Assembly (NCBI GenBank): GCA_034420855.1
Contig: DAOUKX010000021.1
Location: 1 to 55,824, forward strand
Source: Dehalococcoidia bacterium
GTDB lineage: Bacteria > Chloroflexota > Dehalococcoidia > Lucifugimonadales > GCA-2712585
Direction of reading: 5' to 3'
Length of the DNA stretch: 55,824 nucleotides
This document shows positions 7,013 through 25,805 of the stretch, in pieces. Position numbers and translations under genes: made by a program. The notes under the pieces were generated by a model. That model was not told where the DNA came from. It did not search any database and was given only the letters and a program-made list of their open reading frames with translations. The first letter of the stretch is position 1. Every line of letters begins with the position of its first letter.

Positions 7013-8017
7013 TCAGAGGTTAAACTGAGGGTCGACCCAATTGGACTCTTTCTGGTACACCTGAATGCGAGCCCTCTGATTGTCTGCAACCAGCACCTTG
7101 CCGTCGTACGATATCTCGACGGCGCAGGGCCGGTTGAACCGCCATTCCGGCTCATGGCTCTTCACCCGAAGTCGGGCTTTGATGTAGTCAGGATTCGCGT
7201 CTATAAACTCTTGGGCCCACCTGGAAAGTCGTTCCGCATCGCCGCGGAAGCTGGTAATGTGGATTCCCGAAGGATCGTAGACCTCCAGCTTATGGTTCCA
7301 CCAGTCCGTGACGTATACGTCACCGTCCCTGTCGACTGCCACGTCGCTTGGATGCTTTACCTCACCTGGACCTTCGCCGGAGCTGCCAAAGCTCATGATG
7401 TAATCGCCGTCCGGGGTGAACTTCTGGATCCTGTCATTGTGCCAGTCGGCCACATAGACGTAGCCGTCATGGTCGATGGAGATACCCCAAGGGCGACGGA
7501 ATTTGCCCTCAGCTTTGCCCTCGCTTCCCCAGCCTAGGACAAAGTCGCCGTCCTTTGTGAACTTCTGCACCCTGTGGTTCAACTCCTCGGTAATGTAGAA
7601 GTGTCCGTTTCCGTCGAAGACAAGGCCGCCGGGGCTGTTCAGTTGTCCCTTTTCTTTTCCGGGAGTTCCCCATTTGGTGATAAACGTTCCGTCCTTATCG
7701 AACACGGAAACACGGCATAGCCACTCGTCGAGAACGTACACCATGTCGTCATCGTCCAGAGCAATTGCTACGGGCCAAACGAATTTGCCGTCCGCCTCTC
7801 CGTAGCCGCCAAACTCTCCGAGGTAGTCTTCGTCGATGGTGGCTATGCTGATGCGCTGGCACTTCTGAAACTCGTCGGTCTGGTTCACTACATAGATGAC
7901 TCCGTCCTTGCCGATAGCCAGATCAGCGGGGTACCTGAAGCCACGCCCCGACAGGGTGTTGATGCCAATGGTGTGGCTGTAGTTGTAGACCCGGCCGCGG
8001 ACCGTTACAGTCTGCAT
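7013..8017 (-). CDS. NHL-repeat beta-propeller protein
   Basis: 334 aa with at least four clear repeats of about 45 aa of the NHL type (for example GQLNSPGGLVFDGNGHFYITEELNHRVQKFTKDGDFVLGWG and GKFRRPWGISIDHDGYVYVADWHNDRIQKFTPDGDYIMSFG), plus more divergent N- and C-terminal blades. No signal peptide is evident. Confidence 0.85.
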   Translation of the reverse strand: MQTVTVRGRVYNYSHTIGINTLSGRGFRYPADLAIGKDGVIYVVNQTDEFQKCQRISIATIDEDYLGEFGGYGEADGKFVWPVAIALDDDDMVYVLDEWLCRVSVFDKDGTFITKWGTPGKEKGQLNSPGGLVFDGNGHFYITEELNHRVQKFTKDGDFVLGWGSEGKAEGKFRRPWGISIDHDGYVYVADWHNDRIQKFTPDGDYIMSFGSSGEGPGEVKHPSDVAVDRDGDVYVTDWWNHKLEVYDPSGIHITSFRGDAERLSRWAQEFIDANPDYIKARLRVKSHEPEWRFNRPCAVEISYDGKVLVADNQRARIQVYQKESNWVDPQFNL

Positions 8018-9614: not shown

Positions 9615-11003
9615 ATGGGCAATAGAAACAGCAGGACATCGCAAAACCGGATAGCGATAATAGGCGGGGGAATATCAGGTCTGGCAGCGGCGTGGGGGCT
9701 GCATCAACACCCCGACCGCTTTGATTTCCGCCTGTTTGAAGCCCAGGACCGGATTGGTGGAAATGCAGTCACAGTTGATATGCCGCAGGAAGACGGGACT
9801 GCCATTCCCTTCGATATTTCGGTAACTGCGTGCATTCCCTCGATTTACCACCACATTGTGCTGCTGATGGAAAATTTTGGCATTGAGCTGTTCGAGACGA
9901 AATTCAGCTACAGCGTTAAGTACAGGGGCCAAGTCTACGCTCACGATTTCGATTCCGAGATCAGAAAAGAGCTGCAGCCGGAGATTGATAAATTCCAACG
10001 CCTCCTTAAACGGCTTCACCGGTTCGGCAGGCTAAGTCGCTCGCAGTCCAAGTTCGTCAATGCCCTTAATCCCTACAACTACGTGAGCATGGGCACGGTG
10101 CTGAATTGGCACGGCTTTTCGGGGGAATTTCGTTACAAGATTCTCAAGCCGATGTTCGTTAACTTTGTGCTGGCGACGAACGTGTTCGACATGCCGGCGT
10201 CTCTCTTCTCCAGATACCTCGAGTTCTTTGACATAGAGTTCGCCACTCTCATGCAGACCTGGGACCAGGGAACCCGGCGAATATATGAAAACCTGACTTC
10301 GGGCCTTAGAGACAAGATTTACCTGAGCAGGCCCGTCCGAAAAGTCTATCGGAAGCCCTCCGGCGTTGTGGTAGAGGACGAAAACGGCGATCAGGAATCA
10401 TTTGACGAGGTGGTCTTTGCCTGCAACGCTAACCAGACGCTGATGATGCTTGATAACCCCACGATGCTGGAGCGTTATCTTCTCTCGTCGATTCGTTACG
10501 AGAGCGAGCTTCACAACCACACGGTAGTGCATTCGGACTCCTCGGTCTTGCCTGATAACGAGGTAAGGCCTCTGGAGACCAGGAGCAACCACATTGAGCA
10601 GTACGGGTCAAGGCCGGACAATTATGAAATCACCTACATCATGCACAACCAGCAGCCCTGGGCCCATGATTCCGACAAACCGTGTCTTGTGACCTACAAC
10701 CCGATCAGCAAGATCAACGAAGGGAAGGTCATCCGAAGACACTGGTTCCAACATATCGTGCACGACGTTCGGCACGTTGCGTTTCTCATGCATTTGTTTC
10801 GATTCGTTCAGGGCAAGAGACACACCTGGCACTGCGGCGCTCATACGCTGATCAACAGCCAGGAGACCTGTTTCGTCAGTGGACTGGCCGCGGCAAGACA
10901 GTTGGGCGCGGATTATCCCTTCGACGACCAGGAAGCAAGGAGGATGTTCAACTATTACGGGAGCATTCTGTACGGTTGGGCTTTCAAGAAAGCGAAGGGT
11001 TGA
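9615..11003 (+). CDS. NAD(P)/FAD-dependent oxidoreductase, COG2907 / amine-oxidase-like
   Basis: 462 aa. N-terminal dinucleotide fold IAIIGGGISGLAAAWGL ... LFEAQDRIGGN. The C-terminal signature W.CGA...(E)..SGL.AA..LG is typical of the COG2907 flavoproteins usually found next to CFA-synthase-like genes. Confidence 0.75.
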   Translation: MGNRNSRTSQNRIAIIGGGISGLAAAWGLHQHPDRFDFRLFEAQDRIGGNAVTVDMPQEDGTAIPFDISVTACIPSIYHHIVLLMENFGIELFETKFSYSVKYRGQVYAHDFDSEIRKELQPEIDKFQRLLKRLHRFGRLSRSQSKFVNALNPYNYVSMGTVLNWHGFSGEFRYKILKPMFVNFVLATNVFDMPASLFSRYLEFFDIEFATLMQTWDQGTRRIYENLTSGLRDKIYLSRPVRKVYRKPSGVVVEDENGDQESFDEVVFACNANQTLMMLDNPTMLERYLLSSIRYESELHNHTVVHSDSSVLPDNEVRPLETRSNHIEQYGSRPDNYEITYIMHNQQPWAHDSDKPCLVTYNPISKINEGKVIRRHWFQHIVHDVRHVAFLMHLFRFVQGKRHTWHCGAHTLINSQETCFVSGLAAARQLGADYPFDDQEARRMFNYYGSILYGWAFKKAKG

Positions 11004-11113
11004 ACAGGGACGGAGGCCGGGAGCGCCACATAATTGAGACCCCGAGTTGTGGGACTTCAGCAGTTGTTCACTTCACTTAAAGCCATGTTCGTGGGTATTT
11101 TTGGAACACTGAT

Positions 11114-11143
11114 TTGCATCCGCATCACCGCAGGAAGTATACT
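11114..11143 (+). promoter_or_regulatory. Candidate sigma70-type promoter for the GPP34-P450 gene (TTGCAT - 18 nt - TATACT)
   Basis: TTGCAT at 11114-11119 and TATACT at 11138-11143, about 60 nt upstream of the ATG at 11205. That ATG has an AAGGAGA ribosome-binding site. Pattern match only. Confidence 0.35.
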
Positions 11144-11204
11144 GAGTGTGTATCCGTTAAGAGTGGTTGAGATTAGTGCGTGGAATTGACGCAAGGAGAC
11201 AATC

Positions 11205-13232
11205 ATGGTTACAGCCACACAGGAAACTGCCCTTTACACGCTGACTCTGCCAGAGGAACTCATTCTGATGCTCCTCAACGAGGAGAACGGGTACTTTCAT
11301 CAGGTTCCCGGCTGGGATTTGAACTGCGCCATCGTCGGAGCTGCCCTTGGTGAACTCTCCCTTCTGTCTCGGATAGACACCGACCTTGAGTCTCTATTTC
11401 TCATTGACTCTACAGAAACCGGCGACCCTACACTGGACCCCATATTGAAGGAGATTGCGGAGGAAGAGAACAAGCGCGATGCGCTATATTGGATTGAAAG
11501 GCTCGCTCCCCGCGCTGAGTCCATCATCGACCTGACGCTCGACCGGCTTGTGGACATGAAGATTCTGGAGCAGCACGCGGGAGAATTCTGGACTCTTGCT
11601 CGCAATGCACGCATGGGTAAGTTTGCCGGCGGTTTCTCCGAGGGCACCCTGGTAGAGTTCGTCAAAACGCGGATTACCAAGGAGATCTTCGACGACGAGA
11701 TCCCTGACCCGCGGGACGCCATGCTCATCAGTCTCGTTGATGCATGCGATGTCTTTCGCTTCATGTTCCAACTGGATGAGGAGACGGAAAAACGCATCAA
11801 GTTTATTCGCCAGACAGCTTTGCTTGGGCGCACCATTGCCGCTGCCGTCGCCGAAAACATAGCCAGTCCGCTGCTCAGACGGTCTGCGTTAACCAAGAAG
11901 ATTCCAAACGTCTCACTGCGCAAGATGATGTTCAACAAGCGCCTGCGGGACGGAAACATTCCTGCCCTATTCGCAGATCTTGCAAGCGAGTACGGCCCAG
12001 TGTTTCAGATTCGGCCGCCGTTCCAGAAGCCCATGATTTTTCTGGCCGGGCCTGAGACAAATCATTGGGTGCACCGACGCGGGCGCATGTACCTCAGGGC
12101 GAAAGACTATATTGCAGACTTTGAGAAAGTTTATGGAGCAAACGGGGTCTTGCCTTCCCTAGATGGAGCGGATCATTTTAAATTGCGCAAGTCTCTGGCG
12201 CCGGCCTATTCCCGGGGAAGGCTATCAAGCCAGGTAGAGCAAGTGTATGAATATGTGAGGAAATTCATGTCTACCTGGGAGGTGGGAGACGTACACCCCG
12301 CAACAGCCATGTGCCGGCAAATGATTAACGCGCAACTCTCACCCCTGTTTATCAGCGTTGATTCCCAGGACATCATCGAAGACCTCGCAAAATACAAGGA
12401 ACGGGCGCTGCTGGTCCACATCGTAAAAATATTGCCGAAGTTCATGCTGAAGACGCCAGACATGAAACGCCGCGCAAAAGCAGTAGACGTCCTCCTGCAA
12501 AGAGTGCAGAATGTGCATACCCCATCCCAGAGAGCCGGGCAACCGCGAGATCTTGCGGATGACCTGCTGAGTCTGCACGCCAGCGATCCACAGCTTGTTT
12601 CCGAGTCGGACCTTCGGTTTGCTCTATCGGCGGCTTTGATTGCCAGCGTATACCTGGGCGATGCGTTCAGCTTTGCCGTGTATGCCATGTTAGCCCAGCC
12701 GGAACTCTACGCCAAGATCCAAGAAGAGGCAGACGCCCTCTTCGAGAACGGCGATCCAGAAGGCAAAGACTTCACCCTTGATGCCATCGACGTAACCCAC
12801 CGCTTTCTTATTGAATGTCTACGCATGTATCCAATTGTTCCAATGTCCATGCGAACGGTAATGAATTCGTGTGTGGTGGAGGACTATGAACTGCCCGTGG
12901 GTTCGCGCATTATCATTGCCCAGTCAGCCTCTCATTTTATGGAGGACGTTTTCCCGGACCCCTTCAAGTTTGACATAGACCGCTACAAGCCTCCTCGCAA
13001 TGAGCATCACAGCCCCGGATATGCACCATACGGATTGGGAACGCACATGTGCCTCGGTTCCCGGTGGATGGACCTGCAGTTGACCATCAACGTGCTTATG
13101 CTGGCCCATTACTTCACGCTCAAGATTTCTCCGTCCAACTACAAGTTGAAGGTCAACCCGATGCCGTCCTCTAAACCCAACAGCAAGCTGAAGTTCCAGG
13201 TAGTGAACAAAAGGCGAGATATCAACGTCTGA
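11205..13232 (+). CDS. Fusion protein: N-terminal GPP34/GOLPH3-like domain + C-terminal cytochrome P450
   Basis: 675 aa. Residues about 10-225 resemble GPP34 (LPEELILMLLNEENGYF ... DPRDAMLISLVDACDVF). Residues about 240-675 carry P450 hallmarks: ExxR (ECLR), PDPFKFDIDRY, and the heme loop YAPYGLGTHMCLGSRW (Cys codon at 13050-13052). One continuous frame with no internal stop. Confidence 0.85.
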   Translation: MVTATQETALYTLTLPEELILMLLNEENGYFHQVPGWDLNCAIVGAALGELSLLSRIDTDLESLFLIDSTETGDPTLDPILKEIAEEENKRDALYWIERLAPRAESIIDLTLDRLVDMKILEQHAGEFWTLARNARMGKFAGGFSEGTLVEFVKTRITKEIFDDEIPDPRDAMLISLVDACDVFRFMFQLDEETEKRIKFIRQTALLGRTIAAAVAENIASPLLRRSALTKKIPNVSLRKMMFNKRLRDGNIPALFADLASEYGPVFQIRPPFQKPMIFLAGPETNHWVHRRGRMYLRAKDYIADFEKVYGANGVLPSLDGADHFKLRKSLAPAYSRGRLSSQVEQVYEYVRKFMSTWEVGDVHPATAMCRQMINAQLSPLFISVDSQDIIEDLAKYKERALLVHIVKILPKFMLKTPDMKRRAKAVDVLLQRVQNVHTPSQRAGQPRDLADDLLSLHASDPQLVSESDLRFALSAALIASVYLGDAFSFAVYAMLAQPELYAKIQEEADALFENGDPEGKDFTLDAIDVTHRFLIECLRMYPIVPMSMRTVMNSCVVEDYELPVGSRIIIAQSASHFMEDVFPDPFKFDIDRYKPPRNEHHSPGYAPYGLGTHMCLGSRWMDLQLTINVLMLAHYFTLKISPSNYKLKVNPMPSSKPNSKLKFQVVNKRRDINV

Positions 13233-13271
13233 CGCTCTCCGTGCTGCGCAAGCTAGAGGGAAGAAAAGGAC

Positions 13272-14309
13272 TTAAGAAGGCTTGCGAGCCAGGAAGCAGT
13301 AGAGAGGCGTGAAGATCCCTGCCTTGCCGCCCGCCACATAGGCGTTGGCGGTGCAGTCCAAGAGCCCCACCACATCCGTAGATCCCTTTGGGAAAATCCT
13401 CAACGTCTCGGCCACTCTGGATGCTCCGATAAATAGCTTGCGTCCCAACGGAATCCTCCGCAGAGCGTCGCGCATTGTGCCGCCCCTGGTTTCCATGGGC
13501 TGGTACCACGGCGTACTCGGAGCGTTTTCATCCGCGGCCCGATCCATTGCTTCCATTACCTGAAATCCCGCCGTCTGAAGGGCCTGATTTACCTCTTCAA
13601 AACTGGCGATATCCTTGAGCGCGATGCCGTGCATCAGGTCTCTCTTGATGGCGCGGTGCCGCTCCAAGTCGGGGTTGAACTCATCCGTCATGCACATTTC
13701 CTGCCCCCAGAAAAGGGCGCCGGGTTTCAGTACGCGGTATATCTCAGCGAAGGCGCCCGCTTTGTCCGGCGCATGACAGGTTGATTCGATGGCGTAACCA
13801 CGGTCAATTGAATCGTCGGCGATTGCATCCATTTTCATGAAGCTGCATGCCAGATAGTCAACCATGTGGTCGATGCCTGCCTCTGAGTTCAACGCTTTCG
13901 CCTTCTGCAACTGAATTTCACTCCGATTGACGCCGACTACTCTTACATCCGCCTCACTGACAACACGGCGCATCGGGCCACCGATCCCGCAACCAACGTC
14001 TATAACGGTCATGCCCTTGCGCAAGTCCAGCTTGTCTATCATCAGCCGCTGGTGGCGTATCTTGGAATCCTCCAGACTTTCGCTAGGTGACAGGGGTGCA
14101 AAGTGCAGAGATTCACCCCAGCCGAACACCATGAACTCATTGCAGAGGTCGTAGTATTCCTTCACGGTTTCTGCGTGGTCGTAGCCCGGCCCTCCGGCTT
14201 CTTCCATCTTCGCCTTGTCCATCCACTCATGGAAGAGTCTCACGCGGCGACGGACGTCGGATCCTCGGTATGAGTCCTTCAGCCCGCTGGAGAGTTTGCG
14301 CAGTTGCAT
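13272..14309 (-). CDS. Sterol 24-C-methyltransferase (ERG6/SMT)-like SAM-dependent methyltransferase
   Basis: 345 aa. Matches the conserved SMT blocks as I remember them from ERG6: YYDLCNEFMVFGWGESLHFAP (ERG6 YYN..TDFYEYGWGSSFHF), IDVGCGIGGP, YAIESTCHAP (ERG6 YAIEATCHAP), IYRVLKPG, PWY, and the C-terminal AYVAGGKAGIFTPLYCFLARKP (ERG6 LVAGGKSKLFTPMMLFVARKP). Confidence 0.85.
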   Translation of the reverse strand: MQLRKLSSGLKDSYRGSDVRRRVRLFHEWMDKAKMEEAGGPGYDHAETVKEYYDLCNEFMVFGWGESLHFAPLSPSESLEDSKIRHQRLMIDKLDLRKGMTVIDVGCGIGGPMRRVVSEADVRVVGVNRSEIQLQKAKALNSEAGIDHMVDYLACSFMKMDAIADDSIDRGYAIESTCHAPDKAGAFAEIYRVLKPGALFWGQEMCMTDEFNPDLERHRAIKRDLMHGIALKDIASFEEVNQALQTAGFQVMEAMDRAADENAPSTPWYQPMETRGGTMRDALRRIPLGRKLFIGASRVAETLRIFPKGSTDVVGLLDCTANAYVAGGKAGIFTPLYCFLARKPS

Positions 14310-14332
14310 AAGTTCCCTTACCAGGACTTGAC

Positions 14333-16798
14333 CTATTCGTTTTCGTGGCGCCTATGCACGGCTTCTATGGCTTCATCCAATTCATCGGACCAACGCTGCA
14401 CCGAAGATCGGAGCCGCATGTTCTGGTAGGCGCCCCATACAGTCATCATGGGGGGCACCATGATGATGGATACGATGAGTGAATAGGCGATTGTTATGCC
14501 CGCGGTGATTCCGAATTGCTGAGACGCAGCCAGTGGTGAGAATACAAGCGCTCCCAGGCCAAGCCCGGTTGTGAGCGCAGAACCCAGGAGGGCCGAGCCG
14601 GTGGTGGAAAGAGTTTGTACGGCGGCTTGTTGCGGGTCGCGTGCCTTGGAGTATTCCTCACGATAACGGTGAATCATGTGAATTGTGTAGTCCACGCCAA
14701 TGCCGATTGAGAGAGCCGTGATGATTGACGTGATGATTGTGTACGGAATGCCCAGGAGGGCCATTGTTCCCAGGACCGAGATGAGGACAAGCACAATGGG
14801 CCCAACGGCGATTATTGCCAGAGCGGGCTGCCGCACCGTCACCCAGAAGAAAACGGCGAGAACTGTGAGTGCAGCCAGAATGGTGGTAATGATGGCCTCC
14901 GACTGCCGCTCCGTAATGGAGTCGGTGACGGTAACGGAGATAATGCTCTCCGAAGTGGCGGTGATTGTGTCGTCTTCGCCAAACCAGAGGTCTTCAATCT
15001 CCTGTTGGAGTATTTTAGTGCCGGATGGATCGCTGTTGATTACGCGGAATTGAAGCAACATGGCGTCGACCCCATTGGGGTCGTTGATCAGCATCCGGCC
15101 TAAGGCGGGGTCTTTTGCCTCCAGCTTGTCCAGGAACTCTTGCATGAGAGTCGCATCGAATTGGATGCCCGCGGAAGCTTCTTTGAATAGGGCAGCAAGT
15201 TTAGGGTCATACTTGTCCCCGGGTTCCCCACTTTCGGTCACCCAGTCGCGTACAAGTAGCTCGTAGGATGCGAGAATGGGTCCGGCGGCTGCTCTGGGTC
15301 GTCGGGCCTCATCAGCAAAACCTTCCTCAAGGTCCTGCAGATTTAGGAGGGTGCGAGTCTCCGTGGCTTCCCCCCTGACAAGGGCAGTGGCCATTTCGGT
15401 TGAGCCGCCAACTGCAACTTCAAGGGTGTCCAGGTCCTTCAACAAGGTCCCGCCCCGCGGAAGGATGTCGCGTATGTCGAATTCCGACTTGAGGTCGGTG
15501 GCCGCAAATCCGAATCCGATGGTCACGGCAATTACGCCAATGATGTAAGGGGCAGGTCTGTTCGTAACACTGCGTCCCAGCCACGCCGCGATGCGGCTGA
15601 CGCCGGGCAAGGCGTTCGCAATGGGACGAGGTGGAGTCAGGCTTCCACGTGCTTCGCGTCTGCGATCAATGATTGTCCTACCGGCAGGTACAAGGGTCAG
15701 CATTACGATAAGGCTCATGCCAACTCCCAATCCGGCGATGATGCCGAAATCTCCCACGATGTTGATCGGCGAGAAAAGGTTGGCCAGGAAGCTGATAATA
15801 GTGGTGACGGCAGCCAATACCAGAGGTATGGTGACGTTTCGCAGGCCCATCCTGACAGAGCTCAGGACCCCTTCCCCGGCGGTGCGCTGCTCTCGGTAGT
15901 GGGATACAATTTGGATTGCGTAGTCCACGGTGAGGCCGATGATGATTATGGGCACCATGGTGGTCAGGGAGTTGGGAGGGCCGGTGATTCCCAATCCGTT
16001 CGGTCCAAGCCAGCCTTCCGTGCCGACAATCCAGATTATCGACATGAGGAGACCGCCAAGGGTCAGGAAGAGGTCCGAGAATGTGCGCATGAAGAGGAGA
16101 ATCAACGCTGCGATCAGCAGGAAAGCGAGCCCGATAAGGGGCGCCATTCCTTCTTCGGTGGCCTTCCTGTATTCGTCCTCTATGACGATGGGAGAAACGC
16201 TGCTCACGGTCAGCGGGCCTTCATCGCCAATTGCCAAATCTTGAATCAGACGCTCTGCGACCTTTATTCGTTCGTCGCCGGTGTCCTGGAGGCGGATGAT
16301 GGCAATTGACACTGCGGTACCGTCGATGTCTGTACCGGTTACTGCGTCCAAGGCGGCCTGAATCTCCGGGATGCTACGAACAGAATCTATTTCCGCCTGG
16401 GTGACGGACTCGAAGGAGTCCACCTGAAGCAGGGACTTGATCATGAACGAGGGAGCGAAGACGGGGTCTTCGTGCTCCAACAGGGTTCCAACGCTTGGAT
16501 TGCTAACCATGGACGATACGAGGCCATCCATCTGCCCGAGTCCCTGTGGGGTAAAGGCCTCGCCGCGAAAGACCAAAGTCACTACATTGGCTTCACCGGA
16601 ATCTCCAAAAAGCTCGTCGATTTCCACTAGGACTTCAGCCACGCGGCTATTATCGGGAAGGGTTTCCGCGGTTTCTGGCGGCGGGGCTCTCCGGGTGGCT
16701 CCCGCGCCCAGCAATACGGTGATGAGGACTAGGACGAGGATGGTGATGTACGGGCGTCCCGTGATTATTCGGCTCAACCTGCCTGGTATGTCGCTCAT
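14333..16798 (-). CDS. RND-superfamily exporter, COG1033/MMPL/HpnN-like (two 6-TM bundles with sterol-sensing-domain-like topology)
   Basis: 821 aa. Two homologous halves, each an extracytoplasmic domain followed by about 5-6 TM helices. Paired motifs GLTVDYAIQIVSHYREQ and GIGVDYTIHMIHRYREE are typical of COG1033/HpnN-type transporters. Confidence 0.8.
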   Translation of the reverse strand: MSDIPGRLSRIITGRPYITILVLVLITVLLGAGATRRAPPPETAETLPDNSRVAEVLVEIDELFGDSGEANVVTLVFRGEAFTPQGLGQMDGLVSSMVSNPSVGTLLEHEDPVFAPSFMIKSLLQVDSFESVTQAEIDSVRSIPEIQAALDAVTGTDIDGTAVSIAIIRLQDTGDERIKVAERLIQDLAIGDEGPLTVSSVSPIVIEDEYRKATEEGMAPLIGLAFLLIAALILLFMRTFSDLFLTLGGLLMSIIWIVGTEGWLGPNGLGITGPPNSLTTMVPIIIIGLTVDYAIQIVSHYREQRTAGEGVLSSVRMGLRNVTIPLVLAAVTTIISFLANLFSPINIVGDFGIIAGLGVGMSLIVMLTLVPAGRTIIDRRREARGSLTPPRPIANALPGVSRIAAWLGRSVTNRPAPYIIGVIAVTIGFGFAATDLKSEFDIRDILPRGGTLLKDLDTLEVAVGGSTEMATALVRGEATETRTLLNLQDLEEGFADEARRPRAAAGPILASYELLVRDWVTESGEPGDKYDPKLAALFKEASAGIQFDATLMQEFLDKLEAKDPALGRMLINDPNGVDAMLLQFRVINSDPSGTKILQQEIEDLWFGEDDTITATSESIISVTVTDSITERQSEAIITTILAALTVLAVFFWVTVRQPALAIIAVGPIVLVLISVLGTMALLGIPYTIITSIITALSIGIGVDYTIHMIHRYREEYSKARDPQQAAVQTLSTTGSALLGSALTTGLGLGALVFSPLAASQQFGITAGITIAYSLIVSIIMVPPMMTVWGAYQNMRLRSSVQRWSDELDEAIEAVHRRHENE

Positions 16799-17057
16799 AT
16801 TTTACCCTTCTGTCGAATCAAGACGGTTGGTACAGCGCCCTTCGCTTTTCGGCTCATCGTATCAAGTCTATAGAGTATGTGCCTGTTGAAGTTATTGCCT
16901 GCCATGAATCCGCTCTACAAACTCTTACCGTAGGCGAGAAGACTCGGCAATACTGGTAGACAAGTAAGTCGGGGGCGCAACACATGGACCGGCTAAATGG
17001 TTCTGTCATTTATTATGCAAGTTGCCGGTCTTGGAAGGTTTGTGACGGTTGTAATGT

Positions 17058-18134
17058 TCAACGGACAGCGCCGCTATGTGCAAGAGGCTCAGGCTGAGCA
17101 GCCTTGCTTGGATTTGGGTAGAACTGGGCACAGTAGGCCCTGAAGGGCATTACCTCTCCGTCGGAGCGGGATAGACGAGGGCGGGAGACGTACTGCTTAC
17201 GGCTCCAGATGATTACATCCTGAAGTACGTCTCTGAGCTGAACGGCCGAGATGAACTTGTTGATAATGGGGGCGCGCAGTCCTGTGGGAAGAAATCCCAA
17301 GCCGGCGAGCAGCTTCTTTGGGTTGCGGATTTCTCGTACTTGTGACACGAGAGTTAAGTCAATGAACGTTCCGTCTACGGGCGTTGCGAGGACCCAGAGG
17401 CGCATGTCCATGCCAATTGAGTGTTCACGGATCTCCACATGGGAGTAGCCCAGTCCGCAAACAAGGGTTTTTGCTGAGATGTTCATAGTGAAGGTTGGGA
17501 GCTTGGCGAAAGAAAAGGTCCTGGAGAAATCGAACCGGCTATCCAGATATGGGCCGGTTATCGTTGCTTTACCGACCCGCTTAACGCTGTCGTAGCCATG
17601 AACGTAGCGCAGGTGGGCCAAATCTACGGAGTTCTCAGATGTTTCCTGGGGGTGACCGGAAAAGCGGACGGTCCTGATGCTGTTGCTGCACCAACCGGTT
17701 TGATCGAGCAGTTCTGTGGGCAGGCGCCATTGGGGTTTGCGGCCCTCAATCCCCCACCATGCGAATAAGAGGCCGTTGATTTCCCGGGTCTCATATACTT
17801 TCAGCCTGGCAGTCTTGGGAGGTTCTGCATAGGGTGTGGCGACGCATTGGCCTGTGGCATCGAATTCAAAACCATGGAAGGGACAGACCAGCCGCCCGGC
17901 GCATACGCGTCCACCGGCAGCAGGGCCTAACTGCGAACCCAGATGAGGACAGTAGGCATCGGCCACGCATATTTGGCCGTCCTCGTCACACCAGACAACG
18001 ATGTTTTCTCCCATCCAGGTCTTCTGGATGAGCTTGGCTTTCAGGATGTCCTTACGGTTTGTGATGAAGTACCAACCCTCAGGAAAAGGGGAAAGCGATT
18101 GGGCATACGTGAGTTTCGTACGTTGGGCTGACAT
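17058..18134 (-). CDS. Rieske [2Fe-2S] non-heme-iron oxygenase, alpha-subunit type
   Basis: 358 aa. Rieske motif CPHLGSQLG-x13-CPFHGFEF (C62/H64/C84/H87, nt 17874-17951). Mononuclear iron motif ENSVDLAHLRYVH (E/N..D..H....H). No ferredoxin or reductase gene is adjacent. Confidence 0.85.
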   Translation of the reverse strand: MSAQRTKLTYAQSLSPFPEGWYFITNRKDILKAKLIQKTWMGENIVVWCDEDGQICVADAYCPHLGSQLGPAAGGRVCAGRLVCPFHGFEFDATGQCVATPYAEPPKTARLKVYETREINGLLFAWWGIEGRKPQWRLPTELLDQTGWCSNSIRTVRFSGHPQETSENSVDLAHLRYVHGYDSVKRVGKATITGPYLDSRFDFSRTFSFAKLPTFTMNISAKTLVCGLGYSHVEIREHSIGMDMRLWVLATPVDGTFIDLTLVSQVREIRNPKKLLAGLGFLPTGLRAPIINKFISAVQLRDVLQDVIIWSRKQYVSRPRLSRSDGEVMPFRAYCAQFYPNPSKAAQPEPLAHSGAVR

Positions 18135-18335: not shown

Positions 18336-21300
18336 TTACGTGTCGTTCTCTGTTATCTTCTGTAGTAGTTCAAGTTGCGCCTCTACCTCGCCGGAGAGCT
18401 TATCGAAGACCTGACAGGCCTGGGTTGTTGGGGGGAAGTCGCCGCTGGCCACAACTTCCGAGAGAGAGGCTAGCTTGGGGCCAAGCCGGGTCGGAGGAGG
18501 CTTCTGGGGATTCGATCCGAGGATTGGTATGAGTTGTTCCTCCACGGACGAGAGGTCTTGCTTCATTGTCGAGGCGGTGGTGGATGACTCGTCTATGTTT
18601 TCGCGTATCTCCCGTATCTTGGCAACGGCATTGTTGGTTTTCTTGATGGTGTCGCGAATTCTGATGAGGAGGTCGAACTGGGCCTGAAGATCCTCTTCAG
18701 ATACCGGCACTCGCGAGTCCTTGTAGATTTGGAAGGGCTGAATTTGGGACGCGTTTCCCACGGTGAGGTTGACCTGGTAGTCGCCGGGCGGGGCGATGGG
18801 TCCTTCCATATGAGTTGTTCCCTCCGCACCAGGATAGCGCATGTCCCAGATAAAACGGTTCATCCCGGGTATCGTGGGTATTCTCTGCCCGTTTTCGCTT
18901 CGGCTGGAGAACTCCTTAATGAAGTTGCCGGCAGAATCAAGGAAGGTCAGCTTGACCTCATCCTGATGTTCTCCATGCAGAAGGTAGGTAAGGGAGACGC
19001 CTCTGGGAGGGTTGGCTCCCGCGACAAGGTAGGTGTGGCGAAGCTGACCCGTGGAAGTATGGCTCTGGTAGAAGGGTGCGATTTCACCGCTAACCATGCG
19101 GTAGTTCTTGCTCCTTCCCGGCCTGTAAGGGAAACTCTGCGGCAGCGCAATGCGGCGGGCTGGCCTTGGTGCGAACAGGAAATCGGTAGCAGGAGCGATG
19201 CCGTCTTTGATCTGGTGCAGAGGCGTCAGATCGTCGAGGATCCAGATGGCCCTTCCGTGGGTGGCGATGACCAGATCGTCGTTCTTGATGACCATATCGT
19301 GGACCGGGACTGCGGGCAGGTTCAGGCTCAATGGCTTCCAGCTGTCGCCGTCGTCAAAGCTGACGTAGACGCTGGTCTCTGTTCCTGCGTACAGCAGTCC
19401 CTGGCGGGCCGGATCCTCCCGTATGACGCGAGTAAAGTCGTTCTCTGGAATACCATTGGTGATTTTCGTCCAGGTTTTGCCGTAATCGTGGGTCTTAAAC
19501 AGGTAGGGCCTGGTGTCGTCCATCTTGTGGTGGGTGGCGGCAAGGTAGGCCGTGGCCGGGTCATGAGAGGAGGGATCGATTGTAATTATAATGGACCACG
19601 AGGGGAGGTCAGGAGGAGTCACGTTCTCCCAGTTCTCTCCGCCGTCTCTTGTTATGTGGACCAGGCCGTCGTCGGAACCGGCCCACAGGAGGCCTTCCGC
19701 GAGGGTGGACTCGTCTAGGGTCATTATACTGCCCATGTTGAAGGGGTTTACCACCTGGATGCTGATGGGACCGCCGTGCAGTTTCGACATTACAGACACG
19801 TCGTTGGTGGTGAGGTCCGGGCTGATGATGGACCAGCTGTGCCCCTCGTCGGTGGAACGAAAGACGACGTGGGCTGCAATGTAGAGCACGCTCGGGTCGT
19901 GAGGCGAAAGGAAGGTGGGGAAGTGGAACTGGAACCGGTACGGGTTGTCCTTGCCAGGGACCATGCCCATGTTCTCAGGCCAGGCCGTAATCATGCGAGT
20001 CTGTCCGGTGGAATGATCGTACATAGTCAGGTTGCCGCCGCCGCCGGGGGAACTCCCAATGGCTCCGGCGAAGACGATGTTTGGGTTCTCGGGATGAACG
20101 GCGATATGGCCGCTTTCGGCGGGGCCAGCGATATGACAATGCTGCCACAGGATGGCTGCGTCGTTGGTGCTGCTGGGCACGCTCATGGCGGTGTTGTCCA
20201 TCTGGGTGGCGTACACGCGATATGGGTCCTGGTTGTCGGTGGTGAGGTGGAAGAAGCTGGCGGTGGGCTGGTTGTAGAGGGTGGACCAGGTGAAGCCGCC
20301 GTTCAGCGAAACCACAGCCCCGCCGTCGCTTCCTTCAATCATGCGGTCCGGATTGTTGGGGTCTATCCAAAGATCATGATTGTCGCCGTGGGGCATCGGC
20401 AGACTCTCGAAGGTGCGCCCTCCGTCAGTGGACTTCCAGAACTCTACGGATAGGACGTAGCAGGTGTCCGCTTCAGTGGGGTGAGCAAAAACGTGGATGT
20501 AGTAGGTACCGCGCCACCACAGGTTTGCCTGGCCGGTTAGCTTCTGCCACGTTTCCCCTGAGTCGTCAGAGCGGTAGAGGCCGCCGTCCTCGGCTTCAAT
20601 CAGCGCCCAAACTCGCTCAGGCATTGCGGGGGAAATAGCAACGCCGATCTTGCCAAGGATACCCGGGGGCATGCCGGGGTTGCAGCTGATTTCGGTCCAT
20701 GTATCACCGCCGTCTTCAGAACGAGAGAGGCCGCTGTGGGGGCCGCCGCTTTGGTGCGTCCACGGATAGCCGCGCAGTTGATATAGAGAGGCGAAGAGAC
20801 GCCGGGGGTTGTTTGGGTCCATGCTGATGTCGATGCCACCAGCTTGCGGCGTGTTGTAGAGGACTTTCTCCCAGCTTCGGCCTCCGTCCCTGGAGCGGAA
20901 TATACCCCGATCCTCATTCGGCCCCCAGACGTGGCCGAGGGCAGCAACGTAGACCAGTTCCGGGTCTTCCGGATGGACGCGAATCTTGGCTATGTGCCGG
21001 GTGTCTTTAAGGCCCATGTTTACCCATGTGCGTCCGCCGTCCGTGGACTTGTACACACCGTCGCCGTGGGACTCGTTGCTCTGGAAGGTGGACTCGCCGG
21101 TGCCAACGTAGATGACATTGGGATCGGAAGGTGCCACGGCAATGGCGCCCACGGAGGCGGTGGTAAAGAAGGCGTCGGATACGTTTTCCCAGTGGGTCCC
21201 CGCGTCTACGGTCTTCCAGACTCCCCCACCGCTGGCGCCGAAGTAGAATACCAGGGGGTTTGAGGGATCGGCGGCAACGGCGACCACTCTGGCGCCGCGG

Positions 21301-21895: not shown

Positions 21896-22045
21896 ACGGG
21901 GATTATAGCAGAGGCGGAAGATTCATTCGAGAAAACCTTCACGTTCTCTTTATCGTTGACAAAATAGCGGCATCTGATACACTTCCCGCAACGGTGTAAC
22001 CAGACACTCAAATGTCTGGAATGGCAGTAAAAGGGCAGGTGCGAC

Positions 22046-22519: not shown

Positions 22520-22522
22520 CCT

Positions 22523-24877: not shown

Positions 24878-24879
24878 CC

Positions 24880-25746: not shown

Positions 25747-25805
25747 GTTACCTGAGCCTGCGCCGTCGGCTGGACAGGTATGCTTGGGCCCTATCTCTTT
25801 AGTAT

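What the first reader, a model, noticed from the sequence alone, without database searches (positions are those of the whole stretch)
9615..18134. Candidate sterol-type lipid tailoring and export module (ERG6-like SMT + GPP34-P450 + Rieske oxygenase + COG1033 RND + COG2907 flavoenzyme) with no cyclase in the window
Seen: five consecutive genes. They are a flavoenzyme (9615-11003, +), a GPP34-P450 fusion (11205-13232, +), an SMT homologue (13272-14309, -), an RND exporter (14333-16798, -) and a Rieske oxygenase (17058-18134, -). The SMT matches ERG6 conserved blocks across its length, including the C-terminal ...AGGK..(I/L)FTP...(F)(L/V)ARKP region. Established: SMTs alkylate C-24 of sterol side chains. 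As I recall, bacterial sterol producers use a Rieske-type oxygenase (SdmA, with the reductase SdmB) for C-4 demethylation, and eukaryotes use Rieske enzymes (Neverland/DAF-36) for C-7 desaturation. P450s perform C-14 demethylation and C-22 desaturation. HpnN/COG1033-type RND proteins move hopanoids, and as I recall BstA of Methylococcus moves sterols. Inference: this block modifies and exports a sterol or related cyclic triterpenoid. I see no squalene epoxidase, oxidosqualene cyclase, CYP51 signature or SdmB-like reductase anywhere in the 55.8 kb. The substrate is therefore either made elsewhere in the genome or taken from a eukaryotic host or prey. I do not know this gene combination, especially the lipid-binding-domain/P450 fusion, as a described pathway.
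Basis: partly seen in the sequence, partly recalled or inferred. Interest (0 to 1): 0.85.

Follow-up and report, generated by a model that had tools for sequence, protein, structure and literature searches.

The report
Cyclase-less sterol-type tailoring and export module
Five neighbouring genes form a conserved, horizontally shared gene set, found here only in sponge-associated bacteria, that most likely methylates, oxidises and pumps out a sterol-like lipid the bacterium does not make itself; this bears on who makes the unusual sponge sterols used as fossil markers of early animals.

Summary
All five ORFs sit at the stated coordinates with the stated domains and intact catalytic motifs. No cyclase, epoxidase, CYP51 or SdmB is encoded in the 55.8 kb window.

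The genes form a real module. Across 80 species-level Chloroflexota/SAR202 genomes, anchored on the SMT, the RND exporter and the GPP34-P450 fusion each co-occur in 66 loci, the Rieske gene in 56 and the flavoenzyme in 39. The outer flanking genes are not conserved.

The same enzymes (57-78% identical) recur around the fusion in Bryobacterales, Rhodospirillaceae and other large genomes. There the single-component exporter is replaced by a tripartite AcrB/MFP/OMF pump, which implies export.

All 39 metagenome hits whose source can be identified come from sponge metagenomes.

The SMT belongs to the ERG6 family but to an untested clade with a changed side-chain pocket (M81, L89, I249). In four genomes the module also holds a fully canonical SMT.

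The Rieske enzyme is KshA-like, not SdmA. The P450 lacks the I-helix acid-alcohol pair. The GPP34-P450 fusion was published in 2025 as a sponge-symbiont hallmark, but it was not linked to these neighbours.

Substrate and products remain inferred.

The parts
9615..11003 (+). FAD flavoenzyme with the amine-oxidase fold (462 aa), related to LkcE and to the P. acnes fatty-acid isomerase. It is first in a two-gene unit with the fusion P450.
   Evidence: Pfam Amino_oxidase 1.2e-20 and NAD_binding_8. PDB: LkcE 4.4e-35 over the full length; P. acnes PUFA isomerase 2b9w 7.4e-12. GxGxxG motif at the N-terminus. Present in 39/80 Chloroflexota loci. 77-78% identical orthologues in L087, L091 and L092.
11205..13232 (+). 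GPP34-P450 fusion protein (675 aa), the 'GPP34_L' type. It is predicted to be cytoplasmic.
   Evidence: Both domains in one ORF. No signal peptide and no clear TM segment: one borderline hydrophobic stretch at aa 474-492 lies in the I-helix region. Present in 66/80 loci, always convergent with the SMT. The fusion type is described in PMC11706023.
11247..11855 (+). GPP34 (GOLPH3/Vps74-like) lipid- or membrane-binding domain, aa 15-217 of the fusion.
   Evidence: Pfam GPP34 6.2e-28, profile positions 1-200 of 201. Only weak sequence matches to Vps74 and GOLPH3 structures. PI4P ligands are only partly conserved: R171 is kept, R90 aligns with V and R174 with D (low-confidence alignment).
11949..13181 (+). 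Cytochrome P450 domain, aa 249-659 of the fusion, with an atypical I-helix.
   Evidence: Heme-Cys loop YGLGTHMCLG at aa 609 and ExxR at aa 537, both conserved. The I-helix reads IASV-YLGD where most fusions have AGx(D/E)T, so there is no acid-alcohol pair and there is a one-residue deletion. The nearest structures are generic class-E P450s.
13272..14309 (-). Atypical sterol-methyltransferase-family enzyme (345 aa). It is last in the Rieske-RND-SMT unit.
   Evidence: Sterol_MT_C 9.8e-16 and Methyltransf_11. 33% identical to ERG6. 23 of 25 residues invariant in functional SMTs are kept. The clade carries L89, M81 and I249 in 121/121 sequences; position 78 is N in the window and S, G or N in most of the clade. 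More than 1800 homologues, the top 120 at 75-97% identity. 326 matching stretches in the GTDB species-representative genome collection.
14310..14332 (-). 23-nt spacer between the RND stop and the SMT start. The two genes are adjacent and co-directional, and this RND-SMT core is the most constant arrangement across relatives.
   Evidence: Coordinates. RND+ SMT+ adjacency is the dominant arrangement in the architecture table.
14333..16798 (-). Single-component RND lipid exporter of the HAE3/MmpL type (821 aa), with two 1+5 TM bundles and two large external loops.
   Evidence: Pfam MMPL 3.8e-44, Sterol-sensing 2.4e-14, Patched 1.9e-12. NCBIfam HAE3 TIGR00921 4.4e-61 (below cutoff), HpnN and BstA far below cutoff. 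PDB: MmpL4/5, HpnN, NPC1, Patched. TM layout. Present in 66/80 loci.
17058..18134 (-). KshA-like Rieske non-heme-iron oxygenase (358 aa). It is first in the minus-strand unit.
   Evidence: Rieske 5.6e-19 and KshA_C 1.2e-20. PDB: KshA 4qdc 5.2e-27 over the full length. CPH..CPFH at aa 62 and the iron site ENSVDLAHLRYVH at aa 167, both conserved. Present in 56/80 loci. 57-62% identical orthologues in four non-Chloroflexota loci.

Best explanation
This is a self-contained, horizontally mobile lipid-tailoring-and-export module of sponge-associated bacteria. It acts on a sterol-type lipid that the module does not itself synthesise, most probably a sterol of the sponge host that partitions into the bacterial membrane.

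Proposed working, with every step inferred unless marked as shown:
1. The N-terminal GPP34 domain holds the otherwise soluble P450 at the membrane, or hands it the lipid. It would do the job that an N-terminal membrane anchor does for eukaryotic sterol P450s.
2. The P450 (atypical I-helix), the KshA-like Rieske oxygenase and the LkcE/isomerase-like flavoenzyme oxidise, desaturate or isomerise the steroid nucleus or side chain.
3. The atypical SMT adds a methyl group from SAM at a position or on an acceptor different from that of canonical C-24 SMTs. Its pocket residues 81, 89 and 249 are changed. In some genomes a canonical SMT in the same module would supply the first C-24 methylation.
4. The RND pump encoded immediately upstream of the SMT expels the product. 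This is an HAE3/MmpL-type pump in single-membrane Chloroflexota and a tripartite AcrB/MFP/OMF pump in double-membrane bacteria, sometimes joined by an LprG-like lipoprotein with an MFS transporter.

Shown here: domain identities, intact catalytic motifs, tight synteny, cross-phylum recurrence with an exporter swap, and restriction of the identifiable metagenome hits to sponges.

Inferred: the substrate, the reaction order, the regiochemistry and where the product ends up.
For: A real module:
- SMT-anchored synteny in 80 species-level genomes: RND 66, fusion 66, Rieske 56, flavoenzyme 39, with non-conserved flanks.

Cross-phylum recurrence with orthologous enzymes:
- L086 (5.9 Mb; its P450 cluster-mates are named Bryobacterales) has Rieske + MFP + AcrB + SMT + fusion + OEP.
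- L087 (Rhodospirillaceae) has OEP + MFP + fusion + SMT + AcrB + Rieske + flavoenzyme.
- L090, L091 and L092 are similar.
- Identities to the window: flavoenzyme 77-78%, SMT 64-71%, Rieske 57-62%, fusion 45-46%.
- The exporter type changes with the cell envelope while the enzymes stay. This argues for export as part of the function.

Sterol theme:
- SMT family membership (Sterol_MT_C, 23 of 25 functional residues).
- Four loci add a canonical SMT to the module with 24-25 of 25 functional residues, Y81, G249, 38-42% identity to ERG6 and Sterol_MT_C at 86-91 bits.
- The Rieske enzyme's nearest solved relative is the steroid hydroxylase KshA.
- The RND protein is of the lipid-transporter type.
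- An LprG-like lipoprotein with an MFS transporter is present in 17 loci.

No cyclase in the window or within +/-10 kb in 80 relatives.

Sponge link:
- All 39 metagenome hits lie in the MKWU01, LXNJ01, LXNI01 and JGIcombinedJ30088 series or in unidentified Ga/JGI sets.
- GPP34_L is reported as exclusive to sponge symbionts, present in 80% of sponge Dehalococcoidia MAGs, and expressed in A. aerophoba (PMC11706023).

All four enzymes lack signal peptides.
Against: - No substrate or product is known and nothing here is experimental.
- The SMT deviates at F89 (L in the whole clade) and at T78. Deviations from the 25 invariant residues were seen in 7 of the 11 SMTs that failed to methylate desmosterol or 24-methylenecholesterol in vitro (bioRxiv 10.64898/2025.12.19.695621). 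It may therefore not act on common Delta-24 sterols.
- The P450 is not a recognisable sterol P450, and its missing acid-alcohol pair is unexplained.
- KshA_C is the general catalytic fold of this Rieske group and is not proof of a steroid substrate.
- No ferredoxin or reductase partner is found in the module.
- I could not scan whole genomes, so a cyclase elsewhere in these genomes is not excluded.
- About 15% of genome loci, and more of the metagenome loci, carry the SMT alone.
- Outside Chloroflexota the SMT accompanies the fusion in only 3 of 7 loci.
- The window's own sponge origin and Chloroflexota assignment are inferred from its relatives.
Confidence: 0.5

Rival explanations
1. The module tailors a lipid the bacterium makes itself, such as squalene, a hopanoid or another isoprenoid with a terminal double bond, and exports it to the cell envelope. 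This would parallel HpnN with hopanoids or MmpL with mycobacterial lipids. Host sterols would play no part.
For: SMT-family enzymes are known to methylate linear triterpenes (Botryococcus squalene and botryococcene methyltransferases; from my own knowledge). In L087 a squalene-hopene cyclase remnant (TIGR01507, 5.2e-59) lies between the fusion and the SMT. The RND protein is of the HAE3/HpnN-related type. Whole genomes could not be scanned for cyclases.
Against: No intact cyclase or squalene synthase lies next to the module in the window or in any of the related loci examined. The L087 cyclase is a 163-aa fragment. All identifiable metagenome hits are from sponges, and GPP34_L is absent from free-living relatives. 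That pattern is hard to explain for a housekeeping envelope lipid. In diderm bacteria the pump is a tripartite efflux system that expels compounds from the cell rather than building the envelope.
Confidence: 0.17
2. The module is a detoxification system. Host-derived or neighbour-derived membrane-active lipophilic metabolites (sterols, terpenoids, saponin aglycones) are oxidised, methylated and then pumped out to protect the symbiont. The product would have no role for the host.
For: The exporter is the most constant partner of the fusion (AcrB-type in 6 of 7 non-Chloroflexota loci, with a TetR regulator in L092). Canonical-I-helix fusions in other lineages sit beside conjugating enzymes and exporters: EcKL/APH kinases with MFS transporters, a sulfotransferase, an acyltransferase. 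This resembles an oxidise-conjugate-export logic.
Against: C-methylation of an olefin by an SMT-type enzyme is a biosynthetic reaction, not a typical detoxification step. The enzymes are highly conserved and specific (flavoenzyme 77-78% identical across phyla). Some modules hold two different SMTs, which suggests a defined multi-step product.
Confidence: 0.15
3. This is the published view. The GPP34 domain is a eukaryote-like PI4P-binding effector that symbionts use to interfere with phagosome maturation. The P450 and the neighbouring genes would be incidental or serve that role.
For: PMC11706023 reports GPP34 enriched in sponge symbionts of 16 phyla, absent from free-living relatives and expressed in situ. 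One PI4P ligand (the R171 equivalent) is conserved.
Against: The fusion has no signal peptide. The R90 and R174 equivalents are not basic in the alignment, although that alignment is of low confidence. The fusion is embedded in a conserved enzyme-plus-exporter module, a context the paper did not examine: it never mentions 'sterol' or 'methyltransferase', and it analysed flanks only for the short form. Two genomes fuse GPP34 to a Rieske domain instead. That fits GPP34 as an accessory domain of lipid oxygenases.
Confidence: 0.1
4. The module is a steroid degradation cluster. The KshA-like oxygenase and a side-chain P450 would start catabolism of sponge sterols as a carbon source.
For: The Rieske enzyme's best solved match is KshA. 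SAR202 have been proposed to oxidise recalcitrant alicyclic compounds, including sterol-like ones (PMC5395668, listed; I did not read it).
Against: No KstD, KshB, Hsa, FadD or beta-oxidation genes are conserved beside the module. An SMT is anabolic. The constant partner is an exporter, not an importer.
Confidence: 0.04

Closest known systems
Bacterial sterol biosynthesis gene clusters with SMTs (Brown et al. 2023, PMC10070321; Brown & Welander 2025 preprint)
   Same: Both have an ERG6-family SMT with Sterol_MT_C in uncultured bacteria, many from the same sponge metagenomes (A. aerophoba, P. ficiformis, S. foetidus). Both can hold two SMTs in one cluster. In both, a Rieske oxygenase is next to the SMT.
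   Different: Those clusters contain OSC/SMO, ERG11, ERG24 and sdmA/sdmB, so they can make sterols de novo. This module has none of these. Instead it has a GPP34-P450 fusion, a KshA-like (not SdmA) Rieske enzyme, an LkcE-like flavoenzyme and an exporter. Its SMT clade has M81, L89 and I249. It lies on none of the contigs whose SMTs were tested, among the IDs I could read.
GPP34_L, the GPP34-cytochrome P450 fusion of sponge symbionts (PMC11706023)
   Same: Same domain architecture. The same organisms carry it (Dehalococcoidia, Acidobacteriota, Proteobacteria and others from sponges). The window protein is a member.
   Different: The paper interprets it as a PI4P-binding modulator of phagocytosis and did not report the SMT, Rieske, flavoenzyme or RND neighbours. 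Here the family splits into a canonical-I-helix group with kinase, sulfotransferase or MFS neighbours, and an atypical-I-helix group tied to this module.
Sterol-modifying toolkit of sterol-auxotrophic animals (DAF-36/Neverland Rieske 7-desaturase, DAF-9-type P450, STRM-1 SMT-like C-4 methylase)
   Same: The same three enzyme classes (a Rieske oxygenase, a P450 and an SMT-family methylase) act on an externally acquired sterol without any cyclase. STRM enzymes show that the SMT family can methylate the steroid nucleus of 3-ketosteroids (PMC9136925).
   Different: This is an analogy only. Homology to DAF-36, DAF-9 or STRM-1 specifically was not tested, because I held no sequences. The bacterial genes are clustered, and the module adds a flavoenzyme and an exporter.
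HpnN (hopanoid), BstA (Methylococcus sterol) and MmpL / LprG-P55 (mycobacterial lipid) export systems
   Same: The window's transporter is an RND lipid transporter of the same superfamily (MMPL and SSD-like hits; structural relatives MmpL4/5 and HpnN). An LprG-like lipoprotein with an MFS transporter sits beside the module in 17 loci.
   Different: Scores are far below the HpnN and BstA equivalog cutoffs. No BstB or BstC partners were seen. In diderm bacteria the module uses an AcrB-type tripartite pump instead.
KshA, the 3-ketosteroid 9-alpha-hydroxylase oxygenase
   Same: Rieske plus KshA_C architecture, full-length alignment at 5e-27, and conserved cluster and iron ligands.
   Different: No KshB reductase and no catabolic neighbours. 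The pairwise match is distant. The regiochemistry is unknown.
UfaM/UfaD furan-fatty-acid pathway (PMC7380195)
   Same: The logic is shared: a SAM-dependent methylase acts on a lipid double bond, and an FAD enzyme of the desaturase or amine-oxidase type then works next to the new methyl branch.
   Different: Homology of the window flavoenzyme to UfaD was not tested. The lipid class differs.

Membership tests
Sterol C-24 methyltransferase family (ERG6/SMT) | C-terminal Sterol_MT_C domain (PF08498) after a class I SAM-MT domain | tested here: met
   58.1 bits against a 21.7 cutoff, aa 284-344; Methyltransf_11 7.6e-16.
Sterol C-24 methyltransferase family (ERG6/SMT) | SAM-binding Region II (DxGxGxxGP), E195 in Region III and G217 in Region IV | tested here: met
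   All are present, and they are kept in 120-121 of 121 clade members.
Sterol C-24 methyltransferase family (ERG6/SMT) | Sterol-binding Region I Y/F81-x-Y/F83-GWGxxFHF, and all 25 residues invariant in experimentally active SMTs | tested here: not met
   23 of 25 are kept. F89 is L in 121/121 clade members. T78 is N in the window and S, G or N in most of the clade. Position 81 is M (121/121) and position 249 is I (121/121). The residue list comes from bioRxiv 10.64898/2025.12.19.695621.
Sterol C-24 methyltransferase family (ERG6/SMT) | Methylation of a Delta-24 sterol in vitro | not testable with these tools
   This needs an enzyme assay. No contig carrying this clade matches the contig IDs of tested SMTs that I could read.
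Bacterial de novo sterol biosynthesis cluster | Oxidosqualene cyclase and squalene monooxygenase (plus ERG11, ERG24, sdmAB) in the cluster | tested here: not met
   None in the window. None among the conserved neighbours in 80 loci. Whole genomes were not scanned.
SdmA (bacterial C-4 sterol demethylase Rieske oxygenase) | Match to the SdmA equivalog model, and an adjacent SdmB reductase | tested here: not met
   NF052579 scores 34.5 bits against a 600 cutoff, on the Rieske domain only. No SdmB-like gene is in the window.
KshA-type Rieske oxygenase | Rieske CxH...CxxH cluster, a mononuclear iron site with two His ligands, and the KshA_C catalytic domain | tested here: met
   Motifs at aa 62 and aa 167 are conserved in 51 sequences. 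KshA_C 1.2e-20. 4qdc 5.2e-27.
KshA-type Rieske oxygenase | A KshB reductase partner and a steroid-catabolic gene context | tested here: not met
   No reductase or catabolic genes are among the conserved neighbours or in the window.
GPP34_L (GPP34-P450 fusion of sponge symbionts) | PF05719 and PF00067 in one polypeptide | tested here: met
   The family is defined in PMC11706023.
GPP34_L (GPP34-P450 fusion of sponge symbionts) | Origin in a sponge symbiont | tested here: inconclusive
   The window's own source is unknown. The relatives of its neighbouring SMT lie in sponge metagenomes and in MAGs whose bin names suggest sponge origin. The fusion itself was not used as a query against the metagenome collection.
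GOLPH3/Vps74 PI4P-binding proteins | PI4P ligands W81, R90, R171 and R174 (human GOLPH3 numbering; the residue list is from my own knowledge) | tested here: inconclusive
   R171 aligns with a conserved R. R90 aligns with V and R174 with D. W81 is ambiguous. The alignments have E-values of 0.006-0.3.
CYP51 sterol 14-alpha-demethylase | Specific, top-ranking similarity to CYP51 | tested here: not met
   CYP51 matches (1e-18) are no better than CYP102-like, taxadiene hydroxylase or CYP120 matches. The I-helix lacks the acid-alcohol pair altogether.
HpnN / BstA lipid RND transporters | Score above the equivalog cutoff | tested here: not met
   HpnN 126.7 against 751.9 and 82.8 against 1100; BstA 23.9 against 1400.
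HAE3 / MMPL RND superfamily | MMPL domain pair with a 12-TM layout | tested here: met
   PF03176 3.8e-44 in two stretches. TM profile. TIGR00921 scores 206.9 bits, below its 351.9 cutoff.

The most novel reading that the evidence does not exclude
Phylogenetically distant sponge symbionts share, by horizontal transfer, a module that takes up host sterols, remodels them and pumps them back. The remodelling would include an unconventional SAM-dependent alkylation by the M81/L89/I249 SMT clade, for example at C-26 or on an already alkylated side chain. It would be assisted in some genomes by a canonical G249-type SMT. The 'unconventional' sponge sterols behind the 24-isopropylcholestane and 26-methylstigmastane biomarkers would then be joint host-symbiont products, and GPP34_L would be a lipid-oxygenase accessory domain rather than a phagocytosis effector.
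Probability: 0.12. Interest if true: 0.95.

Novelty: new variant of a known kind. Interest (0 to 1): 0.75.

Why it matters
Two recent lines of work meet in this locus without having been connected.

The first is that uncultured bacteria own working sterol methyltransferases. This undermines the use of side-chain-alkylated steranes as proof of early sponges.

The second is that a GPP34-P450 fusion is one of the strongest genomic hallmarks of sponge symbiosis, and its function is unknown.

Here the hallmark fusion sits in a conserved, cross-phylum module with an untested SMT clade, a steroid-hydroxylase-like Rieske enzyme and an exporter. No sterol-synthesis genes are nearby.

If the reading is right, three things follow:
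- There is a concrete, cloneable candidate route by which symbionts alter host sterols.
- The function of GPP34_L gets a testable alternative explanation.
- There is a defined set of genes to test in the debate over who makes sponge biomarker sterols.

If it is wrong about sterols, it is still a widespread, symbiosis-linked lipid-tailoring and efflux system of unknown product.

Tried and rejected
- Looked for the tested SMT sequences of Brown et al. in the supplements. No sequences are held. The 2025 alignment is stored as an unreadable OCR table. I could therefore compare only contig IDs, and those do not overlap.
- Tried to name the window's organism from 90%-identity clusters of housekeeping and module proteins. 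No member carries a taxon name.
- PDB sequence search for the SMT found only generic methyltransferases. The entry 6f5z, named '24-sterol C-methyltransferase', matches weakly (3.7e-07) and only over the methyltransferase core.
- Promoter and terminator scans over the module were not above the shuffled expectation.
- Bayer et al. 2018 on sponge Chloroflexi contains nothing on sterols, P450 or squalene.
- The Melophlus 'msb' cluster (PMC7074536) is a canonical gamma-proteobacterial sterol cluster with a cyclase and is a different system.
- Rejected a steroid-catabolism reading (no catabolic partners), a chance-neighbourhood reading (synteny statistics) and an SdmA, CYP51, BstA or HpnN identity (scores far below cutoffs).
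- The neighbours of the solitary SMT copies were checked and are unrelated: sarcosine oxidase subunits, a carboxyltransferase and an MFS transporter.
- No structure prediction was run. It returns no coordinates, so it could not test pocket geometry.

Full report
**1. The observation**

Pfam confirms each assignment:
- 9615-11003(+): Amino_oxidase flavoenzyme.
- 11205-13232(+): one 675-aa protein with GPP34 (aa 15-217) and p450 (aa 249-659).
- 13272-14309(-): methyltransferase with Sterol_MT_C (58 bits, cutoff 21.7).
- 14333-16798(-): MMPL-type RND protein with sterol-sensing-like and Patched-like hits.
- 17058-18134(-): Rieske plus KshA_C oxygenase.

Catalytic motifs are intact and conserved across relatives:
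- the heme-Cys loop and ExxR in the P450;
- CxH...CxxH and the mononuclear-iron histidines in the Rieske protein;
- GxGxxG in the flavoenzyme.

None of the four enzymes has a signal peptide, and none has a clear TM segment. The only hydrophobic stretch, aa 474-492 of the fusion, is borderline and lies in the I-helix region. The RND protein has the usual two 1+5 TM bundles.

On the minus strand the order is Rieske, then RND, then SMT, with only 23 nt between RND and SMT. This unit converges on flavoenzyme-then-fusion on the plus strand.

All window ORFs of 300 aa or more were scanned. They encode ordinary bacterial functions: cobalamin salvage, a CoxL-type molybdoenzyme, pyruvate kinase and transporters. 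None is a cyclase, squalene epoxidase, CYP51 or SdmB-like reductase.

**2. It is a module, not a chance neighbourhood**

The SMT has more than 1800 homologues. The best 120 are 75-97% identical, and the few with names are Chloroflexota/Dehalococcoidia MAGs.

In a collection holding one genome per species, 326 stretches encode a relative. The best 80 are almost all Dehalococcoidia, SAR202 or Chloroflexota MAGs, several with bin names (APA, COS, RHO, SB06xx) that look like sponge bins.

With the SMT as anchor, tblastn over +/-10 kb gives these counts:

| Partner | Loci (of 80) |
|---|---|
| RND | 66 |
| GPP34-P450 fusion | 66 |
| Rieske | 56 |
| Flavoenzyme | 39 |
| Window's outer neighbours (NHL, DUF1800, sortilin-like) | essentially never |

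Unsupervised clustering of all ORFs in these loci recovers exactly these five families at the top (75, 63, 62, 50 and 37 loci). An MFS transporter and an LppX/LprG-type lipoprotein follow at 17 loci each. Everything else is noise at 8 loci or fewer.

The invariant core is RND-then-SMT, co-directional, with the fusion convergent. The Rieske, flavoenzyme and LprG-MFS genes move around this core. A 97%-identical relative on a 400-kb contig is syntenic throughout.

**3. The module crosses phyla, and the exporter changes with the envelope**

A search of the fusion against 50%-identity representatives shows a large family: 396 representatives below 1e-30, many full-length at 27-41% identity.

Alignment splits it in two:
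- Most members have the canonical P450 I-helix AGx(D/E)T.
- The window's clade and its nearest representatives read ASxYLG, with a one-residue deletion and no acid-alcohol pair.

Four canonical-type fusions from other lineages (L082-L085) have no SMT, Rieske or flavoenzyme nearby. They sit instead beside EcKL/APH-type kinases with MFS transporters, a sulfotransferase, sulfatases or an acyltransferase.

Seven atypical-type fusions outside Chloroflexota behave differently:
- L086 (5.9 Mb genome; its P450 cluster-mates are named Bryobacterales): Rieske/KshA_C, MFP, AcrB, SMT, fusion, OEP.
- L087 (Rhodospirillaceae): OEP, MFP, fusion, SMT, AcrB, Rieske/KshA_C and Amino_oxidase.
- L090 (Bryobacterales MAG): AcrB, SMT, fusion, OEP.
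- L091: AcrB, Rieske, flavoenzyme, fusion.
- L092: OEP, TetR, Rieske, fusion, AcrB, MFP, flavoenzyme.
- L089: only the tripartite pump.
- L088: none of the partners.

Identities to the window proteins are flavoenzyme 77-78%, SMT 64-71%, Rieske 57-62% and fusion 45-46%. These values are very high for comparisons between Chloroflexota, Acidobacteriota and Alphaproteobacteria, so the enzymes have moved horizontally.

The window's HAE3-type exporter has no orthologue in those loci. An AcrB/MFP/OMF tripartite pump takes its place. The enzymes are kept while the exporter is swapped to suit a one-membrane or a two-membrane cell. This is the strongest argument that export of the product is part of the module's function, because tripartite RND systems expel compounds from the cell.

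**4. Link to sponges**

The single scan of 241 million metagenome records found 39 loci.

| Contig series | Source | Hits |
|---|---|---|
| MKWU01 | Aplysina aerophoba (from memory, the Slaby et al. assembly; not verified here) | 11 |
| LXNJ01 | Petrosia ficiformis (label used in Brown et al.) | 10 |
| LXNI01 | Sarcotragus foetidus (label used in Brown & Welander) | 8 |
| JGIcombinedJ30088 | A. aerophoba (label used in Brown et al.) | 2 |
| Ga02090xx/Ga02095xx/Ga02097xx, JGI24796 | source not verified | 8 |

The scan uses clade-specific peptide patterns, so it is blind to distant relatives. No hit from an identifiable non-sponge environment appeared.

Independently, PMC11706023 reports that GPP34-P450 fusions occur only in sponge symbionts. 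They are present in 80% of sponge Dehalococcoidia MAGs and in none of the free-living relatives analysed, and they are expressed in A. aerophoba.

The window's own source is not known to me. Its sponge and Chloroflexota origin is inferred from its relatives and from the monoderm-type exporter.

**5. What each enzyme is and is not**

*SMT.* I used an ERG6 sequence recalled from memory. I validated it against 27 numbered residues printed in the Brown & Welander 2025 preprint, and all 27 matched.

The window SMT is 33% identical to ERG6 and keeps 23 of the 25 residues invariant in experimentally active SMTs. The whole clade (121/121 sequences) has L at position 89 instead of F, M at 81 instead of Y or F, and I at 249. 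Position 78 is S, G or N in most members instead of T.

Residues 81 and 249 lie within 5 Å of the docked sterol side chain in those authors' models. Deviations from the 25 residues were found in 7 of the 11 SMTs that were inactive on desmosterol or 24-methylenecholesterol. So this is an SMT-family enzyme with a remodelled acceptor pocket, and its regiochemistry cannot be assumed.

STRM-type family members methylate C-4 of 3-ketosteroids (PMC9136925). That is one credible alternative to a side-chain position.

In four Chloroflexota loci the module edge carries a second, fully canonical SMT. It has 25 of 25 residues in three cases and 24 of 25 in one. All four have Y81 and G249, and one has F83. 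They are 38-42% identical to ERG6, with Sterol_MT_C at 86-91 bits. This is the best contextual evidence that the module works on a sterol side chain.

*Rieske.* Its nearest solved relative is the steroid 9-alpha-hydroxylase KshA (5e-27, full length). The SdmA model matches only the Rieske domain, at 34.5 bits against a 600 cutoff.

*P450.* It is a generic class-E enzyme with no CYP51 specificity and has the atypical I-helix described above.

*Flavoenzyme.* Its closest structures are LkcE (4e-35) and the P. acnes polyunsaturated fatty-acid isomerase. Both are members of the 'amine oxidase' fold that act on polyketide or lipid chains rather than on amines.

*RND.* It is of the HAE3/MmpL type and related to MmpL4/5, HpnN, NPC1 and Patched. 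It scores far below the HpnN and BstA equivalog cutoffs.

*GPP34 domain.* In low-confidence alignments to Vps74 and GOLPH3, only one of the four PI4P ligands I recall is clearly conserved: R171 is kept, R90 aligns with V, R174 aligns with D, and W81 is ambiguous.

**6. Most likely mechanism**

My preferred reading, at confidence about 0.5, is a cyclase-independent module that tailors an externally supplied sterol-type lipid and exports the product.
1. The GPP34 domain brings a soluble P450 to the membrane-embedded substrate.
2. The P450, the Rieske oxygenase and the flavoenzyme oxidise, desaturate or isomerise it.
3. The atypical SMT adds an unconventional methyl group. In some genomes this would follow a canonical C-24 methylation by the second SMT.
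4. The adjacent RND pump expels the product.

The closest functional analogy is the toolkit with which sterol-auxotrophic animals modify dietary sterol: a Rieske enzyme (DAF-36/Neverland), a P450 (DAF-9) and an SMT-like methylase (STRM-1). That analogy rests on my own knowledge, and I did not test homology.

What is shown: the domains, the motifs, the synteny, the horizontal spread, the exporter swap and the sponge restriction of the identifiable hits. What is inferred: the substrate, the order of steps, the regiochemistry and the fate of the product. The electron donors for the P450 and the Rieske enzyme are not encoded in the module.

**7. Rivals**

- *A self-made isoprenoid lipid (squalene or hopanoid).* Whole genomes were not scanned, so this is not excluded. 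L087 has a 163-aa squalene-hopene cyclase remnant inside the module. But no intact cyclase neighbours any locus, and the sponge-restricted distribution does not fit an envelope-housekeeping role.
- *Detoxification and efflux of host lipophiles.* This fits the constant pump, and it fits the kinase and sulfotransferase neighbours of the canonical fusions. It does not fit olefin C-methylation or the presence of two SMTs.
- *The published PI4P-effector hypothesis for GPP34_L.* It is weakened by the absence of a secretion signal and by the enzyme-plus-exporter context, but it is not excluded.
- *Steroid catabolism.* This is unlikely, because there are no catabolic partners and the SMT is anabolic.

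**8. Novelty**

Bacterial SMTs (2023) and the GPP34-P450 fusion (2025) are both published. In nine full-text searches I found no paper that links the fusion to an SMT, a KshA-like Rieske enzyme, this flavoenzyme or an exporter. I also found none that describes this SMT clade. The GPP34 paper never mentions sterols or methyltransferases.

I therefore rate this as a new variant of a known kind (bacterial sterol-type gene clusters). It has high interest because it joins two open questions and yields directly testable enzymes.

Noticed in passing
L010:14423-15439(-), L018:14438-15511(-), L014:17223-18251(-), L058:18080-19177(-): A second, canonical SMT sits at the edge of the module in four Chloroflexota genomes. 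It matches 24-25 of the 25 'functional' residues and carries Y81 and Gly249. The L058 copy also has F83, giving the combination (F at 81 or 83, plus G249) that Brown & Welander associate with 24-isopropyl formation.
   Followed up: partly
L087:12758-13249(-): A 163-aa remnant of squalene-hopene cyclase (TIGR01507 5.2e-59, profile positions 436-575 of 640) is wedged between an AcrB fragment and the SMT in the Rhodospirillaceae copy of the module. It may mark insertion into, or decay of, a hopanoid locus.
   Followed up: partly
L086:12357-13010(-), L087:12065-12706(-), L090:8555-9280(-): A gene of about 215-240 aa equal to the C-terminal fifth of the AcrB-type pump lies immediately after the fusion gene in L086 and L087. 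It is 64-68% identical to the full pumps, and the two copies are 66.5% identical to each other. It is either a conserved remnant or a small functional gene. In L090 the piece in this position is contiguous with an 824-aa ACR_tran ORF and looks like a split pump; I did not compare its sequence.
   Followed up: partly
L083:11991-13256, L085:7126-9983, L084:8858-9971: GPP34-P450 fusions with a canonical I-helix in other lineages sit next to EcKL/APH (ecdysteroid-kinase-like) kinases with MFS exporters, or next to a sulfotransferase. This suggests a parallel oxidise-conjugate-export logic.
   Followed up: no
L022, L025, L044, L051 (SMT at about 9944-11038 in each): Solitary copies of the atypical SMT, without the module, lie beside heterotetrameric sarcosine oxidase subunits (SoxA, SoxB, SoxG), a carboxyltransferase and MFS transporters. 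The SMT's best NCBIfam hit, though very weak, is sarcosine/dimethylglycine N-methyltransferase.
   Followed up: partly
window 35138-35320 (-): A cobalamin riboswitch (RF00174, 106.9 bits) lies upstream of a FecCD / periplasmic-binding / ABC transporter operon. The surrounding 30-39 kb holds cobalamin salvage genes (CobT, CobD, CobQ, an aminotransferase).
   Followed up: no
window 18336-21359 (-), 7013-8017 (-), 3752-4831 (+): Eukaryote-like proteins flank the module: a 1007-aa Sortilin-Vps10/BNR protein directly next to the Rieske gene, an NHL-repeat propeller, and a protein with a collagen triple-helix repeat and Cache domains. From my own knowledge, such proteins are typical of sponge symbionts.
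   Followed up: no
window 50629-51597 (-): A DDE-type transposase (DDE_Tnp_1 plus DUF772), far from the module. Transposase genes also lie inside the module in L086 (DDE_3, DDE_Tnp_1_4).
   Followed up: no
window 21892-28068: A CoxL/M/S-type molybdenum hydroxylase (large subunit, FAD subunit, small Fe-S subunit) with AAA (CoxD-like) and VWA CoxE accessory genes.
   Followed up: no
window 12606-12710 (aa 468-502 of the fusion): The P450 I-helix of this clade lacks the conserved acid-alcohol pair (IASV-YLGD against AGxDT) while keeping a normal Cys loop. I have no explanation. Possibilities are substrate-assisted oxygen activation or peroxide or rearrangement chemistry.
   Followed up: partly
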